This document shows, piece by piece, positions 40,127-44,863 of a stretch of 64,000 nucleotides of DNA (position 1 is its first letter; each line of letters begins with the position of its first letter). The translations under genes were made by a program, and so were the position numbers. Location of the stretch: assembly GCA_027482225.1 (NCBI GenBank), contig JAIXWD010000017.1, forward strand, positions 42,436 to 106,435, given 5' to 3'. Source of the stretch: Bacteroidota bacterium. Lineage in GTDB: Bacteria > Bacteroidota > Bacteroidia > UKL13-3. The notes below the pieces were generated by a model, which made no database searches, was not told the origin of the DNA, and worked only from the letters and a program-made list of their open reading frames with translations.

Positions 40127-41035
40127 GTGAGCACCAATATCCCCGACATATTACGAAAACTTTATAGTGGCGATAAACGTGCTTTAGCGCGCTGTATCAC
40201 TTTGGTTGAAAACGAATGGCCTGGATATGAACAATTGTTGCAGCAACTTACCTTTGCTAAAAATACTCCCGTTATTGGTATTACTGGTCCTCCGGGTGCT
40301 GGTAAAAGTACACTTATTGGAGCCTTGGCAGGATACATTACCTCATTAGGGAAAAAGTTAGCCATTATAGCGGTTGACCCTAGTTCACCTTTTAATCGTG
40401 GTGCACTAATGGGCGACAGGCTGCGTATGAGCGATCATTACCTTAACCCCAATATTTTTATACGCAGCATGGCAAGTAGAGGTAGTTTAGGTGGGTTAGC
40501 GCCTAAAATATTTGAGGTGGCAGATATCATCAAAGCATCAGGTTTTGATTACATCATTATTGAAACAGTTGGTGTAGGACAAAGTGAAGTAGAAATTGCT
40601 GCATTGGCTGATACAACAGTTTTAGCATTAGTACCTGAGGCCGGGGATGATATTCAAACCATAAAAAGTGGGGTGATGGAAATTGCCGATGTGTATGTAT
40701 TAAACAAAGCCGACAGAGATGGTGCAAACACTTTTGTAAAAAACCTAAGCATGCTGGCTCATACCAATGCACACGATGGCTGGGAGGCTCCTGTAATTAA
40801 AACTGTAGCTACAAAAAATGAGGGCTTGGTTGAGTTGTTAGATGCTATAGAAAAGCACCACCAACATGAATTTAATAGCCATAAAAAAGCACATTTAATG
40901 ACCGAAAAAGCCTTGATGTTGATACGTAATTTGCGTACTAAAGATATTTCATTTGAAACCATTGAACAAGAATTGCAGCAATTAATGAATGATAAAAACT
41001 TTAACCTCTATCAATATGTTTCTAAATTTACTTAG
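40127..41035 (+). CDS. meaB: Methylmalonyl-CoA mutase-associated GTPase MeaB/ArgK
   Basis: GPPGAGKST, AVDPSSP, GDRLRM, ETVGVGQSE and NKAD. Confidence 0.93.
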   Translation: MSTNIPDILRKLYSGDKRALARCITLVENEWPGYEQLLQQLTFAKNTPVIGITGPPGAGKSTLIGALAGYITSLGKKLAIIAVDPSSPFNRGALMGDRLRMSDHYLNPNIFIRSMASRGSLGGLAPKIFEVADIIKASGFDYIIIETVGVGQSEVEIAALADTTVLALVPEAGDDIQTIKSGVMEIADVYVLNKADRDGANTFVKNLSMLAHTNAHDGWEAPVIKTVATKNEGLVELLDAIEKHHQHEFNSHKKAHLMTEKALMLIRNLRTKDISFETIEQELQQLMNDKNFNLYQYVSKFT

Positions 41036-41050
41036 GAGCTATTATCAAAG

Positions 41051-41626
41051 ATGAATATTTGTATCATATCGGGTTCTGCTAGGGCCAATAATAACACCTT
41101 AAGGGTGGCAAAAGCAATTTCACAAAGGTTAATTGCTATAGGGCATCAGGTTTCGTTAATTGATTTTATAGGTTACGATATTCCACTTATTAATCAAGGT
41201 GAAATAAAGGCAGATAACTTTTCTCCGTTTCAACAAAGTATAGCTGATGGTATGCTGAACGCTAATTCTATAATTGTAATAACACCAGAATACAACTGGA
41301 GCACCACGCCCGAAATTTTAAACTGGTTACATCGTTTTGGAGATAAAAAATTTGCTAACTTATTTAACGATAAAGTTTTTTCTACTGTTGGCGTATCTAC
41401 CGGAAAAGGAGGTAAAGCACCTGCCATACACTTACACAGCATCTTAAATAAAATCATCAGCTTTACGGATTTAAACAGTGTGGTTTCTCCTAAAATTTTT
41501 GAATCACATTATACCAAAGAAGTACTAGACGAGCATGGGGCTTCACTAGGAAATGATATGTTTGATGCTGGTTTAAATGACTTTATTCATTACACTTTGC
41601 GCGTAACGCAAAGGTGGGTGGGATAA
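41051..41626 (+). CDS. NADPH-dependent FMN reductase family protein
   Basis: ISGSAR and TPEYNWS motifs. Confidence 0.88.
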   Translation: MNICIISGSARANNNTLRVAKAISQRLIAIGHQVSLIDFIGYDIPLINQGEIKADNFSPFQQSIADGMLNANSIIVITPEYNWSTTPEILNWLHRFGDKKFANLFNDKVFSTVGVSTGKGGKAPAIHLHSILNKIISFTDLNSVVSPKIFESHYTKEVLDEHGASLGNDMFDAGLNDFIHYTLRVTQRWVG

Positions 41627-41772
41627 GTTACTGCCTCGCTTGTTGGCGACTATAGCGTAAGTTATTATTTCGTAACCCCCGTGCGTATAAGCAAGTATTA
41701 AAACGAAGTTCAGCGGAGCTAAATGAGTTAAGGTACTACTTTAAAACCTACTTTGATTTTCTTAATATTCCC
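41627..41772. repeat. Decayed half-unit and linker of the palindromic array
   Basis: GTTACTGCCTC, GGCGACTATAGCGTAA, GCAAGTATT and ATGAGTTAAGGTACTACTTTAAAACCTACTTTGATTTT are diverged copies of segments in intact units and linkers. Confidence 0.6.
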
Positions 41773-42373
41773 CCTCTCGATACACTTCACTGCGTTTCGT
41801 ACTCGAGGTGGCTGAGATTTTCAATTGATACAATTTAGCCTACTCGAGCCTAGTGGTGACCAAAGCGTCAGCATGAGCTTCGGGCGGGTTGTGTGTATGC
41901 TCTTGTATCGAGAGCATGAGTGAATTGAACAATCCCCTCTCGATAAAATTGCCCCAATGCTCTGGCCAATTGAGCAATCACTCGAGGTGGCTGAGATTTT
42001 CATTTGTAAAGTTACAGCCTCATCGAGTTTGCCTTGGGTAGATTGTGGGTGGAGCAAGTATCGAGATGAGTAAAAGGAACTCCTTTTAAACGTACTTTGA
42101 TTTTTTTAACAATCCGCCTCTCGATACACTTCACTGCGTTTCGTACTCGAGGTGGCTGAGATTTTCATTTGATACAATTTAGCCTACTCGAGTGAGCTTC
42201 GGGTGGGTTGCGCGTATGCGCTTGTATCGAGAGTGGGAATGAATTAAACAATCCGCCTCTCGATACACTTCACTGCGTTTCGTACTCGAGGTGGCTGAGA
42301 CTTTCAATTGATAGGTTATAGCCTCATCGAGTTTGCTTTGCATGGCCTGTGCTGATGAGCAAGTATCGAGATG
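41773..42373. repeat. Left array: four nested-palindrome doublets (41773-41914, 41936-42068, 42117-42233, 42256-42373)
   Basis: Each unit is CCTCTCGATA-variable-ACTCGAGGTGGCT-~23nt-AGCCT(AC/CA)TCGAG-variable-TATCGAGA(G/T). The second half is an imperfect inverted copy of the first. Confidence 0.93.
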
Positions 42374-42376
42374 AAG

Positions 42377-42688
42377 CTACTTTCTACTTTTAACGAATTT
42401 CTTTTTGGATAAAGTTGGTAGTTTGTGAAAATTCTCCTCAATCAAAGCTTGCTTTTTAGCCCTTGACCATTTCTTAATTTTTTGTTCAAAATAATATGCA
42501 GATTCTGGGTCGGTAAATGTTTCATAAAACAATAATTCAATCGGCCTTCTGTTGAAAGTGTAACTACCAGGGTATTTTCCCGATTCATGTTCATTTATTC
42601 TTTTATCGAGATGATTAGTCATTCCAATGTAGAAACTATCATCAGCGCACTTTAAAATGTAAACATAGAATATAGGGTGTATATGCAT
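42377..42688 (-). CDS. Stand-alone small GIY-YIG nuclease (UPF0213/YhbQ-like)
   Basis: FYVYILKC...SFYIGMT..LDKRINEH...YTFNRRP...FEQKIKKWSRAKKQALI, with catalytic Tyr/Arg/Glu positions present. ATG at 42688 preferred because the TTG at 42694 lies inside a -7 promoter motif. Confidence 0.92.
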   Translation of the reverse strand: MHIHPIFYVYILKCADDSFYIGMTNHLDKRINEHESGKYPGSYTFNRRPIELLFYETFTDPESAYYFEQKIKKWSRAKKQALIEENFHKLPTLSKKKFVKSRK

Positions 42689-42691
42689 AGT

Positions 42692-42699
42692 CAAATATA
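42692..42699 (-). promoter_or_regulatory. Bacteroidota -7 promoter element of the GIY-YIG gene
   Basis: Minus-strand TATATTTG matches TAnnTTTG, 3 nt before the ATG. Confidence 0.55.
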
Positions 42700-42739
42700 A
42701 TTCATTTTATAATTCAATACGGTTCATCTTAACAATCTA

Positions 42740-43489
42740 CCTCTCGATACGACCCGATTACTCGGGTCACTCGAGGTGGCTATTTGATAAGTTACAGCCT
42801 CATTGAGCCTGGTGGTGACCATAGCGTCAGTGTTTGCCCCGAGTACTCGGGGTAACGAGATGTGGGATTTAATTTGAGAATCGCCTCTCGATAACCCGAG
42901 TACTCGGGTCCCCAATTCTCAGGCCATTGAGCAATCACTCGAGGTGGCTGTTTCTTCCATTTGTTTAGCTACAGCCTCATCGAGTTTGCCTTGGGTTGTG
43001 GGTAGAGCAAGTATCGAGATGAGTAAAAGGAACTCCTTTTAAACGTACTTTGATTTTTTTAACATTCCGCCTCTCGATACACTTCAATGCGTTTCGTACT
43101 CGAGGTGGCTGAGATTTTCAATTGATACAATTTAGCCTACTCGAGCCTAGTGGTGACCAAAGCGTCAGCATGAGCTTCGGGCGGGTTGTGTGTATGCGCT
43201 TGTATCGAGAGCATGAGTGAATTGAACAATCCCCTCTCGATAATATTGCCCCCATGCTCGGCCCTTTGAGCAATCACTCGAGGTGGCTGAGAGTTCCATT
43301 TGTTAAATTACAGCCTCATTGAGTTTGCTTTGGGTGATTTGTGTGTAGGTGCTTGTATCGAGATGTAGGATTTAATTTGAGAATCACCTCTCGATAACCC
43401 GAGTACTCGGGGCCCCAAATTCAATGGCCCATTGAGCAATCACTCGAGGTGGCTGAGATTTTCGTTTGATACGTTATAACCACATCGAG
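42740..43489. repeat. Right array: five doublets (42740-42862, 42884-43021, 43070-43211, 43233-43365, truncated 43387-43489)
   Basis: Same four conserved boxes and same orientation as the left array; the last unit lacks the closing TATCGAGA box. Confidence 0.93.
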
Positions 43490-43501
43490 CAATCGCTATA
43501 T

Positions 43502-44863
43502 TTACCGTTTAGCCTTCAACTCATCTTCACCCAATTTGTGTTCCCATTTTAATGAACCATTTTTATCAAAGCACTGCATACTTAAAATTCGTTTACCACG
43601 GGTTCCGCTAATACTTATGTTGCAAAAATTATTTTCCATTACCAATGTATTGGCAACACGCATAGGGTTATTAAATTCGAGGCTTTTACTTATATCACTG
43701 GCACGGCTGCTGATGGCGCTGCTTGTTAAATCATGTAACGCATAGCCAAGGCTGGTTTCAACCGTTGTGTTTTTAATCAATTCGGTATGATGCCTATCGC
43801 CTGTTAAAAATATCACGCCACTAATTTTATTTACTACTATAAAATTAATGATGCGTTCGCGTTCTTTCTTATAAAAATTATAACTTTCTTTATCTGTGTT
43901 TTCATTTAAAAACTGGCCACCAATTGCAATAAATTTAAACGGTGCTCGGCTATAAACTAAGTTATTAAATAACCACTGTATTTGCTGTTCGCCAAGTTGT
44001 GTTTTATCTGGGTTTAACGAGTCGTTTAAAAACTGGTAATCCCTAAAATAACGGTCGTCAAGCATAAAAAAATCAGCATCGCTAAAACTAAACATACTAT
44101 AAATGCCTTGGTTATTTTCGCCATACGTTTTATTGGCCCAATAGCTTTTAAAAAGACCCAATGTGGTTTCTTTTAATGGGTATGTTTTACAGGCATCATT
44201 ACTTCCAAAATCATGGTCATCCCAGGTTGCATAATGGATACGCGATGCCAAAAATGGTTGTAAGTTTTTATCTGCACGGGTATGTTGGTACCTGTAATTT
44301 AATCCACTAATACTCCCATAATCCGCTTCACGCGTGTAGGTGTTATCACCCAACCACAACATAAAATCGCTAGGTTTTTCATTCATTTTAAGTAAAATTT
44401 CAGTTCCTTGTCCATAAGGTTTCCCTGGTCTATCATATGCGCTATCATTTACATACAAACAACTGCCCACTAAAAAATTAAAATCAGGTGCGTTGGTTCT
44501 CCACTCCCACAAAGGTTTGGTTTTAAAAGTGAGTGGATATGGGAAATTAGCTACTTTGCCATCCAATAAAATCTGGTAATTATACGTTTTACCCATAGCC
44601 AAATTGCCAATTATAAAATGGTGGTTGGTTATTTGGCAATTGTCAACGGTTTTGGTTAGGGTTGATGCATTTTTAGTATCATCGTTTGCAATCCAATATT
44701 GCAGGCATACTTTTTTAGCACATTGGGTTTGGAGCCAAATGGCCGTTTCTCTATGTTCCATATAACCTGGCATTGGCCCTGCTAAAATGGTTGGCTTTTG
44801 TGCAAAAGATTCTAAAACAAAAAAGGTTAAAACAGTAAGTAAAATTGATTTTAAGATAACCAT
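43502..44863 (-). CDS. phoD: Alkaline phosphatase D family protein
   Basis: Signal peptide, GSC, WLGDNTY, WDDHDF, LDDRYFR and LTGDRHH. Confidence 0.9.
   Translation of the reverse strand: MVILKSILLTVLTFFVLESFAQKPTILAGPMPGYMEHRETAIWLQTQCAKKVCLQYWIANDDTKNASTLTKTVDNCQITNHHFIIGNLAMGKTYNYQILLDGKVANFPYPLTFKTKPLWEWRTNAPDFNFLVGSCLYVNDSAYDRPGKPYGQGTEILLKMNEKPSDFMLWLGDNTYTREADYGSISGLNYRYQHTRADKNLQPFLASRIHYATWDDHDFGSNDACKTYPLKETTLGLFKSYWANKTYGENNQGIYSMFSFSDADFFMLDDRYFRDYQFLNDSLNPDKTQLGEQQIQWLFNNLVYSRAPFKFIAIGGQFLNENTDKESYNFYKKERERIINFIVVNKISGVIFLTGDRHHTELIKNTTVETSLGYALHDLTSSAISSRASDISKSLEFNNPMRVANTLVMENNFCNISISGTRGKRILSMQCFDKNGSLKWEHKLGEDELKAKR

What the first reader, a model, noticed from the sequence alone, without database searches (positions are those of the whole stretch)
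41627..43501. Lone GIY-YIG nuclease embedded in an array of nested-palindrome doublets: candidate REP/REPIN-like system with a non-HUH enzyme
Seen: a ~103-aa GIY-YIG gene has four repeat units downstream (its stop is 3 bp from unit 4) and five upstream, all co-oriented. Together they fill the gap between two convergent genes. Every unit has box1 CCTCTCGATA, box2 ACTCGAGGTGGCT, box3 AGCCT(AC/CA)TCGAG and (except the truncated last unit) box4 TATCGAGA. Box4 is the reverse complement of box1 and box3 an imperfect reverse complement of box2. Box1/box2 and box3/box4 can also pair through CTCGA/TCGAG, so each unit can fold either as one long stem or as a branched two-arm structure. Established: REP doublets (REPINs/BIMEs) flank HUH-family RAYT genes in the same way, and the GIY-YIG family includes branched-DNA nucleases such as Slx1. 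Inference: this nuclease recognises or nicks its flanking palindromes and drives their maintenance or spread, as a functional analogue of RAYT-REP. I do not know of a characterised system of this type, but cannot exclude prior description.
Basis: partly seen in the sequence, partly recalled or inferred. Interest (0 to 1): 0.88.

Follow-up and report, generated by a model that had tools for sequence, protein, structure and literature searches.

The report
GIY-YIG nuclease gene nested in palindromic repeats
A tiny nuclease gene sits at a fixed position inside a cluster of palindromic DNA repeats, and relatives of the gene across a whole class of Bacteroidota carry matching repeats on both sides, which points to an undescribed nuclease-plus-palindrome genetic element.

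Summary
Nine co-oriented four-box units fill the gap between an FMN-reductase gene and a PhoD gene. They surround one 103-aa single-domain GIY-YIG (UPF0213-like) gene. Each unit is two REP-like half-elements (TCTCGATA–hairpin–CTCGAR) in inverted orientation, so the cluster resembles an E. coli BIME.

The gene lies between two half-elements placed head to head. This layout is conserved. All 5 copies with at least 90% identity in 3 sister species have the same units on both sides. In the wider sample, 31 of 59 homologue loci have significant flanking inverted repeats, against 0 of 115 control windows. Repeat type clusters on the protein tree. In another genus a ~370-bp repeat–gene–repeat cassette is present or absent at one orthologous site and also occurs at other sites.

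The half-elements do not track RAYT genes (0 of 30 Y1 transposase loci). However, they are as abundant, and form arrays, in genomes where no such nuclease gene was found. The claim that the nuclease drives their maintenance or spread is therefore not supported.

Best reading: a selfish, homing-like nuclease cassette whose enzyme acts on its cognate palindromes. Cleavage is untested. Six literature searches found no description of such a system.

The parts
41051..41626 (+). FMN reductase gene, left boundary of the repeat cluster (context)
   Evidence: ORF. Pfam FMN_red PF03358, E 3.5e-20.
41627..41760 (+). Degenerate half-element (decayed box3..box4) followed by the short repeat GAAGTTCAGCGGAGCTAAA. 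It corresponds to the intact half-element at the same place in G011.
   Evidence: Read. Compared with L030. Repeats D8 and D11. Module count.
41773..41913 (+). Unit 1 (box1 41773, box2 41802, box3 41837, box4 41906)
   Evidence: nhmmer E 2e-35.
41936..42066 (+). Unit 2
42067..42116 (+). Long (51-nt) A/T-rich spacer between unit 2 and unit 3. The same spacer recurs at 43020-43069, and a variant at about 41730-41772.
   Evidence: Spacer table. Repeats D1 and D3.
42117..42232 (+). Unit 3
   Evidence: DNA fold z -4.2 on both strands.
42256..42371 (+). Unit 4. Its box4 head ends 5 nt from the stop codon of the nuclease gene.
42377..42688 (-). GIY-YIG nuclease gene, 103 aa from the ATG (ORF listing gives 105 aa from the TTG at 42694). 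Single domain, UPF0213-like.
   Evidence: Pfam PF01541, E 1e-18. PDB 1zg2, E 2e-13, and 1ywl. Y10, Y20, G22, R30, H34 and E68 are invariant in 30 to 33 homologues. dN/dS 0.03-0.07 against orthologues. Only copy in the genome.
42689..42739 (-). 5' spacer between the start codon and the head (box1) of unit 5. It contains TATATTTG just before the ATG, which may be a Bacteroidota -7 promoter box.
   Evidence: Read. The promoter consensus is recalled, not tested.
42740..42860 (+). Unit 5 (box4 variant TAACGAGA; carries two CCCGAnTACTCGGG hairpins)
42884..43019 (+). Unit 6
43070..43210 (+). Unit 7. 95% identical over 238 nt to the unit 1 region on the other side of the gene.
   Evidence: Repeat D3..
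43233..43363 (+). Unit 8
43387..43480 (+). Unit 9, truncated (box1, box2, degenerate box3, no box4). It abuts the PhoD stop and is conserved at this position in G011.
43502..44863 (-). PhoD-like phosphatase gene, right boundary (context)
   Evidence: ORF. Pfam PhoD PF09423, E 1.9e-23.

Best explanation
**What it is.** The locus is a BIME-like cluster of REP-like palindromic half-elements. Each half-element has a head TCTCGATA(C), a variable hairpin and a tail (A)CTCGAR. Two kinds alternate in inverted orientation. In the middle sits a small selfish gene cassette: a 103-aa catalytic-domain-only GIY-YIG nuclease gene flanked head to head by two cognate half-elements.

**Shown.**
- The arrangement repeat, then 30-70 nt, then ATG...stop, then 5-50 nt, then inverted repeat is conserved among homologues across the class.
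- Each protein clade has its own repeat variant.
- The repeat-gene-repeat cassette is gained or lost as a unit.

**Inferred.**
- The nuclease recognises the quasi-palindromic pair of its cognate half-elements, as duplex or as an extruded hairpin or cruciform, and cuts there.
- Repair from a gene-bearing copy then carries the gene into gene-less doublets. This would be homing-like, comparable in logic to TnpB/IscB helping IS200/IS605 retention.
- The same breaks would locally duplicate units, which could explain the arrays around the gene.
- The nuclease is a tenant of the repeat family, not its replicator.

In this genus the cassette has stayed at one locus under strong purifying selection.
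For: **Orthologues.** The same units lie on both sides, on the strand opposite the gene, at all 5 copies with at least 90% identity in G003 (two copies), G005 and G006. The locus is PhoD..FMN_red in G003 and G006.

**Flanking inverted repeats.** Of 59 homologue loci with 200-nt flanks, 31 reach z>=5 and 27 reach score>=30. The 115 control windows in the same loci give 0 for both.

**Stereotyped architecture.** 33 of 45 loci with at least 43% identity have both motifs in the sense arrangement. 0 of 85 far windows do. The inner motif lies mostly 31-71 nt before the start.

**Cognate variants.**
- The 'extended' repeat type (18 rows) needs 2 changes on the protein tree, against a shuffled mean of 14.3; 0 of 500 shuffles are as low. 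13 of these rows, including the focal one, form one clade.
- All 15 intact extended-type proteins end in KK[KNED]F or KKKNF. None of the 15 intact proteins of the compact type (14) or with no such repeat (L012) does (my reading).
- Paralogues in one genome carry different repeat variants: G028 L007, L053 and L055; G018 L008 and L051.

**Cassette comes and goes (genus g33, 41 genomes).**
- The intergenic gap is 12-109 nt in at least 15 genomes, against 615 nt in G268.
- In G330, G334, G339 and G332 the match begins at query position 948-952, which is the outer end of the left repeat; in G356, also filled, it begins at 996.
- Cassette-only matches (about 952-1320) lie on other contigs.

**Selfish-gene signature.** The gene is present in 94 of 301 genomes and 59 of 168 genera, in 1-4 copies. 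About 18 of 127 matches have in-frame stops (my count).

**Functional enzyme.** dN/dS is 0.03-0.07 at dS 0.5-1.4, and the catalytic-type residues are invariant.

**Not RAYT-linked.** 0 of 30 Y1_Tnp loci have half-elements.

**Repeats independent of the gene.** G012 has 25 half-elements with arrays and no embedded gene, and G011 has 17. Of 71 genomes with at least 20 compact motifs, 36 lack a homologue (hand count).
Against: - No cleavage or binding data exist. Nothing shows that the enzyme touches the repeats.
- The direction of events is not determined. The near-empty G011 site (one doublet, no gene) could be an unoccupied target, or a collapse of the array by recombination between direct repeats.
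- At the g33 locus the empty sites lack the repeats too. That fits insertion of the whole cassette better than homing into an existing doublet.
- No target-site duplication or exact junction could be defined, because the flanks are only 70-80% identical.
- In the focal genus the gene is single-copy and vertically inherited. That is not what an actively mobile gene looks like.
- 12 of 45 loci lack the full sense arrangement. 5 of the 45 rows (L012, L050, L058, L070, and L011, which is not in the tree) have no such repeat.
- A 103-aa catalytic domain has no evident DNA-binding module.
- Related genomes share labels, so the tree clustering is not independent evidence. The tree is also poorly resolved: 23 of 42 inner branches are open.
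Confidence: 0.5

Rival explanations
1. RAYT analogue. The GIY-YIG nuclease is the replicator or maintainer of the palindromic repeats. It nicks them and spreads them through the genome as RAYTs are thought to do for REPINs. It is a domesticated, single-copy, vertically inherited gene.
For: - The gene is flanked by its repeats as RAYTs are flanked by REPs.
- It is single-copy, sits at the same locus and has dN/dS 0.03-0.07 in the focal genus.
- The repeats do not track Y1 transposases: 0 of 30 loci.
- G006 has 29 half-elements, the nuclease gene and no Y1_Tnp hit.
- The dispersed repeats are polymorphic between sister species.
- There is modest enrichment: 35 of 71 motif-rich genomes have a homologue, against 59 of 230 motif-poor ones (hand count, not corrected for phylogeny).
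Against: - G012 has 25 half-elements, including a 9-unit tandem array, with no GIY-YIG hit (E<=1e-5) and no Y1_Tnp hit.
- G011 has 17 without the gene.
- G010 and G015 have 40 and 26 with only a 43-45% homologue that has no flanking repeats.
- The three most motif-rich class genomes (202, 188 and 125 copies) lack a homologue at E<=1e-12.
- In G000 the best-conserved units all lie at the gene. The roughly 12 dispersed loci are diverged.
- In G268 the cassette's two arms share positions that differ from the abundant solo copies.
Confidence: 0.17
2. Cargo or regulatory reading. The repeats are a general intergenic element family, such as terminators, mRNA-stabilising stems or protein-binding sites, or MITEs moved by an unidentified enzyme acting in trans. 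The GIY-YIG gene was captured once between two of them and has since been carried along. Its nuclease acts on something else, for example repair or defence.
For: - The repeats are abundant without the gene.
- Most dispersed compact motifs sampled in G268 (9 of 11) are solo arms inside another ~60-nt repeat.
- The clusters sit between convergent genes, where terminators are expected.
- UPF0213 relatives in Firmicutes were solved as ordinary single proteins.
Against: - The position and orientation of the gene relative to the repeat heads are kept from 43% to 100% protein identity across many families.
- The protein C-terminus co-varies with repeat class.
- Paralogues in one genome keep distinct repeat variants.
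- A passive passenger would not be expected to keep cognate ends, nor to show dN/dS of 0.05 in one place and frequent pseudogenes elsewhere.
Confidence: 0.23
3. The units are genes for a structured non-coding RNA, present as a tandem sRNA or ribozyme-like array, and the nuclease gene is incidental.
For: - Each unit folds into a nested multi-stem structure, z about -4.
- The inner hairpin stems differ between copies while staying paired: GATTGC/GCAATC, GTCCCGA/TCGGGAC, AACCTGATG/CATCAGGTT (rows).
Against: - No Rfam family matches at E<=1 over the locus or at E<=0.1 over 10 other loci.
- Both strands fold equally well, z -4.16 against -4.18.
- Half-elements occur in both orientations at comparable numbers.
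- Half-elements occur alone and in any combination.
- The one RNA run that shares words with the stretch covers only PhoD, which is uninformative.
Confidence: 0.05

Closest known systems
REP/REPIN-RAYT systems and BIMEs of Proteobacteria
   Same: - Short imperfect palindromes dispersed in intergenic DNA.
- Doublets of two inverted copies.
- Mosaic tandem clusters in which two repeat kinds alternate with set spacers, often between convergent genes.
- One associated gene flanked by the repeats, single-copy and vertically inherited in the focal genus.
   Different: - The associated enzyme is a GIY-YIG nuclease, not an HUH Y1 transposase.
- 0 of 30 Y1_Tnp loci in the genus carry the half-elements.
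- The repeats are as abundant in genomes without the gene.
- Across the class the gene is patchy, multi-copy and often a pseudogene.
- There is no sequence homology to REPs.
- The GTAG tag of REPs (recalled, and seen in the title listing of PMC3733652) is not at the ends of the half-element consensus.
Free-standing GIY-YIG homing endonuclease genes (for example phage T4 Seg proteins and I-TevI; recalled)
   Same: - GIY-YIG catalytic domain.
- Patchy presence.
- Presence or absence at orthologous sites.
- Frequent decay to pseudogenes.
- A small self-contained cassette.
   Different: - Only about 100 aa, with no separate DNA-binding domain.
- Bounded by long cognate inverted repeats.
- Chromosomal, lying in intergenic repeats of Bacteroidota rather than in phage genes or introns.
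- At one tested locus the empty alleles lack the repeats too.
UPF0213 / YhbQ-type small GIY-YIG proteins (PDB 1zg2 BH0048, 1ywl EF2693)
   Same: Same size and single-domain fold family, with direct sequence similarity: E 2e-13 and 5e-9.
   Different: No link to repeats is on record for those proteins in what I searched. Their genomic flanks were not examined here.
TnpB/IscB accessory nucleases of IS200/IS605 (abstract listing of PMC10690162)
   Same: The proposed logic is the same: a nuclease encoded inside a small mobile element promotes the element's retention or copying by cutting sites that lack the element.
   Different: - TnpB and IscB are RNA-guided RuvC or HNH enzymes that work beside a TnpA transposase.
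- Here the nuclease is a protein-only GIY-YIG.
- No transposase lies in the cassette.
- No guide RNA was found.
IS elements and MITEs with terminal inverted repeats
   Same: - Terminal inverted repeats of 23-30 nt or more.
- Gene-less inverted doublets elsewhere.
- The cassette occurs at different loci.
   Different: - The only gene is a hydrolytic nuclease, a kind with no known strand-transfer activity (recalled).
- No target-site duplication could be defined.
- Cassettes of about 0.37-0.4 kb are smaller than any IS I know of (recalled).

Membership tests
GIY-YIG nuclease superfamily (UPF0213-like branch) | Match to the Pfam GIY-YIG catalytic-domain model above its gathering score | tested here: met
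   PF01541, 67.8 bits against a cut-off of 22.6, residues 9-81. NCBIfam gave no named family.
GIY-YIG nuclease superfamily (UPF0213-like branch) | Conserved Tyr (GIY), Tyr-x-Gly (YIG), Arg and Glu of the active site (roles recalled from UvrC and I-TevI work) | tested here: met
   Y10, Y20, G22, R30, H34 and E68 are invariant in 30 aligned homologues and in 33.
GIY-YIG nuclease superfamily (UPF0213-like branch) | Sequence similarity to solved UPF0213 proteins | tested here: met
   1zg2_A, E 2.1e-13; 1ywl_A, E 5.4e-9.
REP/REPIN-RAYT system | Short imperfect palindromes dispersed in extragenic DNA in many copies | tested here: met
   The half-element pattern occurs 19 times in G000 and 4-50 times in 13 of 16 other genus members, against controls of 0-1. 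nhmmer finds about 12 dispersed loci in G000.
REP/REPIN-RAYT system | Doublets of two inverted repeats (REPIN), able to form a long hairpin | tested here: met
   Units are inverted pairs. Folds give z -4.2 to -5.0.
REP/REPIN-RAYT system | The associated, repeat-flanked gene is an HUH Y1 transposase (RAYT) | tested here: not met
   The flanked gene is a GIY-YIG. 0 of 30 Y1_Tnp loci in the genus have a half-element within 1.5 kb.
REP/REPIN-RAYT system | The repeat population depends on the presence of the associated gene | tested here: not met
   G012 (25 half-elements, with arrays) and G011 (17) have no GIY-YIG hit. Of 71 motif-rich class genomes, 36 lack a homologue.
REP/REPIN-RAYT system | The associated gene is single-copy and vertically inherited | tested here: inconclusive
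   Met in the focal genus: one copy in G000, the same locus in G003 and G006, dN/dS 0.03-0.07. Across the class there are 1-4 copies per genome with a patchy distribution.
Homing endonuclease gene | Presence or absence of the gene at orthologous sites, and patchy distribution | tested here: met
   In genus g33 at least 15 genomes are empty and 5 plus the query are filled at one locus. 94 of 301 genomes have the gene.
Homing endonuclease gene | The enzyme cleaves the gene-less allele; the target is the insertion site | not testable with these tools
The G011 site keeps a gene-less doublet, but the empty g33 sites have no repeat.
Homing endonuclease gene | Nuclease domain joined to a sequence-specific DNA-binding domain (recalled for GIY-YIG homing enzymes) | tested here: not met
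   103 aa, with one Pfam domain covering residues 9-81. Relatives are 73-137 aa (near-length search only).
Insertion sequence or MITE | Terminal inverted repeats bounding the element | tested here: met
   Examples: a 27-nt perfect repeat in L051 and a 28-nt repeat in L083. 31 of 59 loci reach z>=5.
Insertion sequence or MITE | Encodes a transposase (DDE, serine, tyrosine or HUH) | tested here: not met
   The only ORF in the 0.37-0.4 kb cassettes is the GIY-YIG gene.
Insertion sequence or MITE | Target-site duplication at the ends | tested here: inconclusive
   Filled and empty sites are too diverged to align at the junction.
Slx1-type structure-specific nuclease | GIY-YIG domain followed by a RING or zinc-finger domain, working with an Slx4-like partner (recalled) | tested here: not met
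   There is no second domain in the 103 aa. A partner was not sought.
Known RNA family (Rfam) | Match to a curated covariance model | tested here: not met
   No match at E<=1 over window 40500-44500. No match at E<=0.1 over 10 related loci.

The most novel reading that the evidence does not exclude
Bacteroidota carry an unrecognised class of minimal genetic elements, about 0.4 kb upward. Their only gene is a ~100-aa GIY-YIG nuclease bounded by cognate REP-like inverted repeats. The nuclease cuts the palindromic repeat pair, perhaps in hairpin or cruciform form, and so copies its own cassette into the many gene-less doublets of a resident repeat family and reshapes BIME-like arrays. This would be the first repeat-associated nuclease that is not an HUH enzyme, and a protein-only counterpart of the TnpB/IscB homing logic.
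Probability: 0.4. Interest if true: 0.85.

Novelty: new variant of a known kind. Interest (0 to 1): 0.74.

Why it matters
- **A function for an unexplained family.** Small GIY-YIG genes are annotated only as 'GIY-YIG nuclease family protein' or 'putative endonuclease'. A conserved cognate link to palindromic repeats would give them a testable function.
- **A second enzyme fold linked to REP-like repeats.** Until now only HUH transposases have that link.
- **A possible source of recombination in Bacteroidota.** The repeat family is abundant, up to about 200 copies per genome. It may explain why assemblies break there and why intergenic regions vary.
- **A compact enzyme of practical interest.** A ~100-aa nuclease with a defined structured or palindromic target would be useful to enzymologists and tool builders.
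- **It can be tested.** Cultured carriers exist: Flavobacterium, Psychroflexus, Flagellimonas and Aquimarina are named.

Tried and rejected
**Tried without result, or rejected.**

- **Rfam.** Nothing over the locus or over 10 related loci.
- **NCBIfam.** No named family.
- **Long spacer as a gene remnant.** I tested whether the 51-nt long spacer is a remnant of the gene's ends, which would indicate a MITE formed by internal deletion. The spacers of G000, G003, G005 and G006 show only vague A/T-rich likeness to the gene's 3' end, so I dropped the idea.
- **RAYT association.**
  - The own genome has two Y1_Tnp genes outside the window, but no units lie near them.
  - None lies near any of 30 Y1 loci in the genus.
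  - Class-wide, Y1_Tnp is in 223 of 301 genomes, too common to discriminate.
- **Homodimer prediction for the nuclease.** No verdict: score 0.00, controls not run. This is evidence for nothing.
- **Public runs.**
  - 20 of the 22 listed runs hold the stretch or part of it, all freshwater, lake or unspecified metagenomes kept as contigs.
  - The contigs break at the repeats.
  - No contig joins across the gene.
  - The single RNA run covers only PhoD.
  - This is uninformative about expression or excision.
- **Exact insertion junctions and target-site duplications.** Filled and empty sites are too diverged to align there.
- **The search for related loci with the single protein.** It returned only 7 loci. 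The survey was done with the genome search instead.
- **The search of earlier findings.** It was closed, so no earlier findings were used.
- **Literature.** Six of the eight searches bore on prior description. A seventh searched typed motifs and an eighth RNA motifs.
  - No paper linked GIY-YIG genes with REP-like repeats. One search found 0 papers holding both 'GIY-YIG' and 'repetitive extragenic palindromic'.
  - I saw search listings and abstract starts only and read no paper in full.
  - Subscription journals and supplements were not searchable, so a prior description cannot be excluded.
- **Hand counts.**
  - The split 35 of 71 against 59 of 230.
  - The stop-codon count, 18 of 127.
  - The C-terminal motif split.
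- **Rows dropped.**
  - L088 (unpublished G190).
  - Loci with flanks under 200 nt.
  - Homologues under 43% identity.
  - Pseudogenes.
- **Unpublished genomes.**
  - The tallies include G190, and those also G114.
  - The 41 genomes include G361.
  - No named example rests on any of them.


Full report
**1. The observation**

The 1.9-kb gap between an FMN-reductase gene (41051-41626, +) and a PhoD-like gene (43502-44863, -) holds nine co-oriented repeat units and one small minus-strand ORF.
- box1 CCTCTCGATA and box2 CTCGAGGTGGCT are present in 9 of 9 units.
- box3 is present in 8 of 9 if TYGAG is allowed. box4 TATCGAGA is present in 7 of 9; U5 reads TAACGAGA and the truncated U9 has none.
- box2 occurs nowhere else in the window. 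Expected by chance 0.02; 0 of 100 shuffles reach 9.
- The ORF is a GIY-YIG domain protein (PF01541, 67.8 bits). It is 103 aa from the ATG used by its homologues.
- Its stop is 5 nt from box4 of unit 4.
- A decayed half-element also lies at 41627-41760.
- Units fold as nested stems equally on both strands (z -4.16 and -4.18). They fold as well in the shifted register box3..box4-spacer-box1..box2 (z -5.0). U4 alone was weak (z -1.46).

**2. Anatomy**

Dispersed relatives of the units in the same genome appear as box3..box4-spacer-box1..box2, and as lone halves.

Read on the proper strand, both halves are the same kind of object: a head TCTCGATA(C), a variable hairpin and a tail (A)CTCGAR. A unit is therefore two half-elements in inverted orientation, with two insert types alternating. 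The spacers come in a few fixed kinds of 23-24, 44-56 and 51-63 nt. This is the architecture of E. coli BIMEs (recalled), without sequence homology.

The nuclease gene occupies one spacer. It has the heads of two half-elements facing it on both sides: 369 nt between box4 of U4 and box1 of U5, and 369-373 nt in G003 and G005.

**3. The gene**

- It is the only such gene in the 2.72-Mb genome. The next tblastn hit has E 0.33.
- It resembles the solved UPF0213 proteins 1zg2 and 1ywl.
- Y10, Y20, G22, R30, H34 and E68 are invariant in 30-33 homologues.
- Against orthologues in G003 (two copies), G005 and G006, dN/dS is 0.03-0.07 at dS 0.5-1.4.
- Public names are only 'GIY-YIG nuclease family protein' or 'putative endonuclease'. 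Named carriers are Flavobacterium, Psychroflexus, Flagellimonas and Aquimarina.
- Record titles place the window's relatives in uncultured Bacteroidota.

**4. Is the association conserved?**

In the genus, yes.
- All 5 copies with at least 90% identity are flanked on both sides by the same units, on the strand opposite the gene.
- PhoD or FMN_red lies on the same contig as the gene in G006 and G003.
- G011 has no GIY-YIG hit (88% complete). There the two host genes are about 210 bp apart and hold one gene-less doublet plus the truncated last unit.

Beyond the genus, yes again.
- Of 59 homologue loci with 200-nt flanks, 31 have a flanking inverted repeat at z>=5, and 27 at score>=30. The 115 control windows from the same loci give 0.
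- The repeats come in two related grammars. The compact form is GTCA..YGAGC-N3-4-(G)TCGARG, 23-30 nt. The extended form has a hairpin inserted between ..TCGAG and GTATCGAR; the focal locus is of this kind.
- On the sense strand the order is always repeat, then 30-70 nt, then ATG...stop, then 5-50 nt, then inverted repeat. 33 of 45 loci with at least 43% identity have both motifs so arranged. 11 of 45 also or instead have the swapped order, as expected inside arrays. 0 of 85 far windows have it.
- Repeat type is clustered on the protein tree. The extended type (18 rows) needs 2 changes, against a shuffled mean of 14.3; 0 of 500 shuffles are as low. 13 rows, including the focal one, form one clade with support 81/87. 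The tree is short and poorly resolved, and kin share labels.
- All 15 intact extended-type proteins end in KK[KNED]F or KKKNF. None of the 15 intact proteins of the compact type (14) or with no such repeat (L012) does (my reading).
- Paralogues in one genome carry different variants (G028, G018).
- A second GIY-YIG subfamily ('GGSIYILTN') has a different flanking repeat, CCGTCATTGCGAG.., 64 nt, z 24-28 in L061.

**5. Does the cassette move?**

I queried the compact cassette of G268 with its flanks in 41 genomes of its genus. The cassette is a 28-nt repeat, the gene and the inverted repeat, about 370 bp in all.
- By coordinates, at least 15 genomes have only 12-109 nt between the two host genes, against 615 nt in G268.
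- Five genomes hold the cassette there. In four of them (G330, G334, G339, G332) the match starts at query position 948-952, which is the outer end of the left repeat; in G356 it starts at 996.
- Cassette-only matches (about 952-1320) lie on other contigs in several genomes. Inspection shows intact repeat-gene-repeat units in other contexts.
- The empty alleles carry no repeat.
- Class-wide, the gene is in 94 of 301 genomes and 59 of 168 genera, in 1-4 copies. About 18 of 127 matches have in-frame stops.

This is the signature of a selfish cassette. In the focal genus, by contrast, it has stayed put.

**6. Do the repeats need the gene?**

No.
- The half-element pattern occurs as follows (forward plus reverse; controls 0-1): G003 50, G010 40, G006 29, G015 26, G012 25, G005 21, G000 19, G011 17, G008 13, G014 12. 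The other genus members have 7 or fewer.
- G012 has neither a GIY-YIG hit nor a Y1_Tnp hit. Yet it holds tandem arrays, one of 9 half-elements, with no gene embedded.
- The compact motif TGAGC-N3-4-TCGAAG reaches 202 copies per genome, against controls of 0-6.
- Of 71 genomes with at least 20 copies, 35 have a homologue at E<=1e-12. Of the other 230, 59 do. The three richest genomes have none (hand count, uncorrected for phylogeny).
- Dispersed mosaic repeats are polymorphic between sister species whether or not the species has the gene. For example, a ~375-nt insert in G000 corresponds to about 45 nt at the orthologous site in G006 and G011.
- In G268, 9 of 11 sampled dispersed motifs are solo arms of another ~60-nt repeat, and the cassette's two arms resemble each other more than they resemble these.

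**7. RAYT test**

- The own genome has two Y1_Tnp genes outside the window. One has an internal TGA. The other is partly duplicated and has its own flanking hairpins.
- Neither of them, nor any of 30 Y1 loci in the genus, has a half-element within 1.5 kb. 4 of 5 GIY-YIG loci have 4-8 each.

**8. Reading**

Shown:
- a conserved, cognate nuclease-gene and palindrome module;
- gain and loss at the level of the cassette;
- independence of the repeat family from the gene;
- no RAYT link.

Inferred:
- The nuclease acts on the head-to-head pair of its cognate half-elements.
- The resulting breaks copy the cassette, in a homing-like way, and reshape the local arrays.

I put this at 0.5. The RAYT-analogue reading gets 0.17, passive cargo or a regulatory role for the repeats 0.23, and an RNA gene array 0.05. 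The remainder is for something not considered.

**9. Comparison and novelty**

The module works like a REP-associated gene or a homing endonuclease gene, but it fails defining features of both families:
- no HUH enzyme;
- no dependence of the repeats on the gene;
- no DNA-binding domain.

It also fails the definition of an IS, because it encodes no transposase.

Six literature searches bearing on prior description, plus a motif search and an RNA-motif search, found no description. I saw listings and abstract starts only, and supplements and subscription journals were not searchable. I therefore file it as a new variant of a known kind, with a 0.4 chance that it is a truly new class of minimal nuclease-only elements.

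**10. Limits**

- There is no biochemistry.
- MAG assemblies break at these repeats.
- Junctions are unresolved.
- The dimer prediction gave no verdict.
- The read and contig evidence was uninformative.
- The tallies include unpublished genomes (G190; also G114), and includes G361. No named example rests on them.

Noticed in passing
G000 contig C20:1336-3762 (locus L022; outside the window): A 188-aa Y1_Tnp (RAYT/IS200-like) gene is followed by a partial tandem duplicate of its first ~64 codons. Its 3' flank has the hairpin GACCCGAATGCTCGGGTT. This resembles the CCCGAnTACTCGGG hairpins inserted in units 5, 6 and 9 of the array (9 copies genome-wide, 4 of them in the locus). These small hairpins may be a separate, RAYT-type REP nested in the larger units.
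   Followed up: partly
G000 contig C22:126261-126605 (locus L021; about 20 kb beyond the window's end): A second Y1_Tnp match (E 1.7e-22) is interrupted by an in-frame TGA and split into two short ORFs. It is probably a pseudogene.
   Followed up: partly
window 41697-41720, and 8 other places in the genome: The short repeat GAAGTTCAGCGGAGCTAAA often directly follows a box4 head in dispersed copies and in sister species' spacers. Its role is unknown.
   Followed up: no
L061, L062, L063, L014, L016 (G021, G027, G035): A different small GIY-YIG subfamily (N-terminus 'GGSIYILTN', 38-42% identity) is flanked by an unrelated inverted repeat beginning CCGTCATTGCGAG. It reaches 64 nt and z 24-28 in L061. 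The link between nuclease genes and palindromes may therefore extend beyond one subfamily.
   Followed up: partly
301 genomes of the class: The motif TGAGC-N3-4-TCGAAG is a highly abundant dispersed repeat in many genomes. It reaches 202 copies, against 0-6 for the reversed control. I found no name for this repeat family.
   Followed up: partly
L036 3285-3976 (G015, between PhoD and FMN reductase): In G015 the same intergenic site holds two small co-oriented ORFs (135 aa and 79 aa) instead of repeats. They look like a toxin-antitoxin-type pair by eye, but I did not scan them.
   Followed up: no
L150 5985-6218 (G010:C131): A 77-aa ORF joins the first and last parts of the Y1_Tnp protein seen in L022, so it is an internally deleted remnant. 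It lies about 650 nt from half-elements.
   Followed up: no
window 41730-41967 and 43027-43264: A 238-nt stretch (spacer, unit 1 and the start of unit 2) is 95% identical to the stretch (spacer, unit 7 and the start of unit 8) on the other side of the nuclease gene. This points to recent duplication or gene conversion across the gene.
   Followed up: partly
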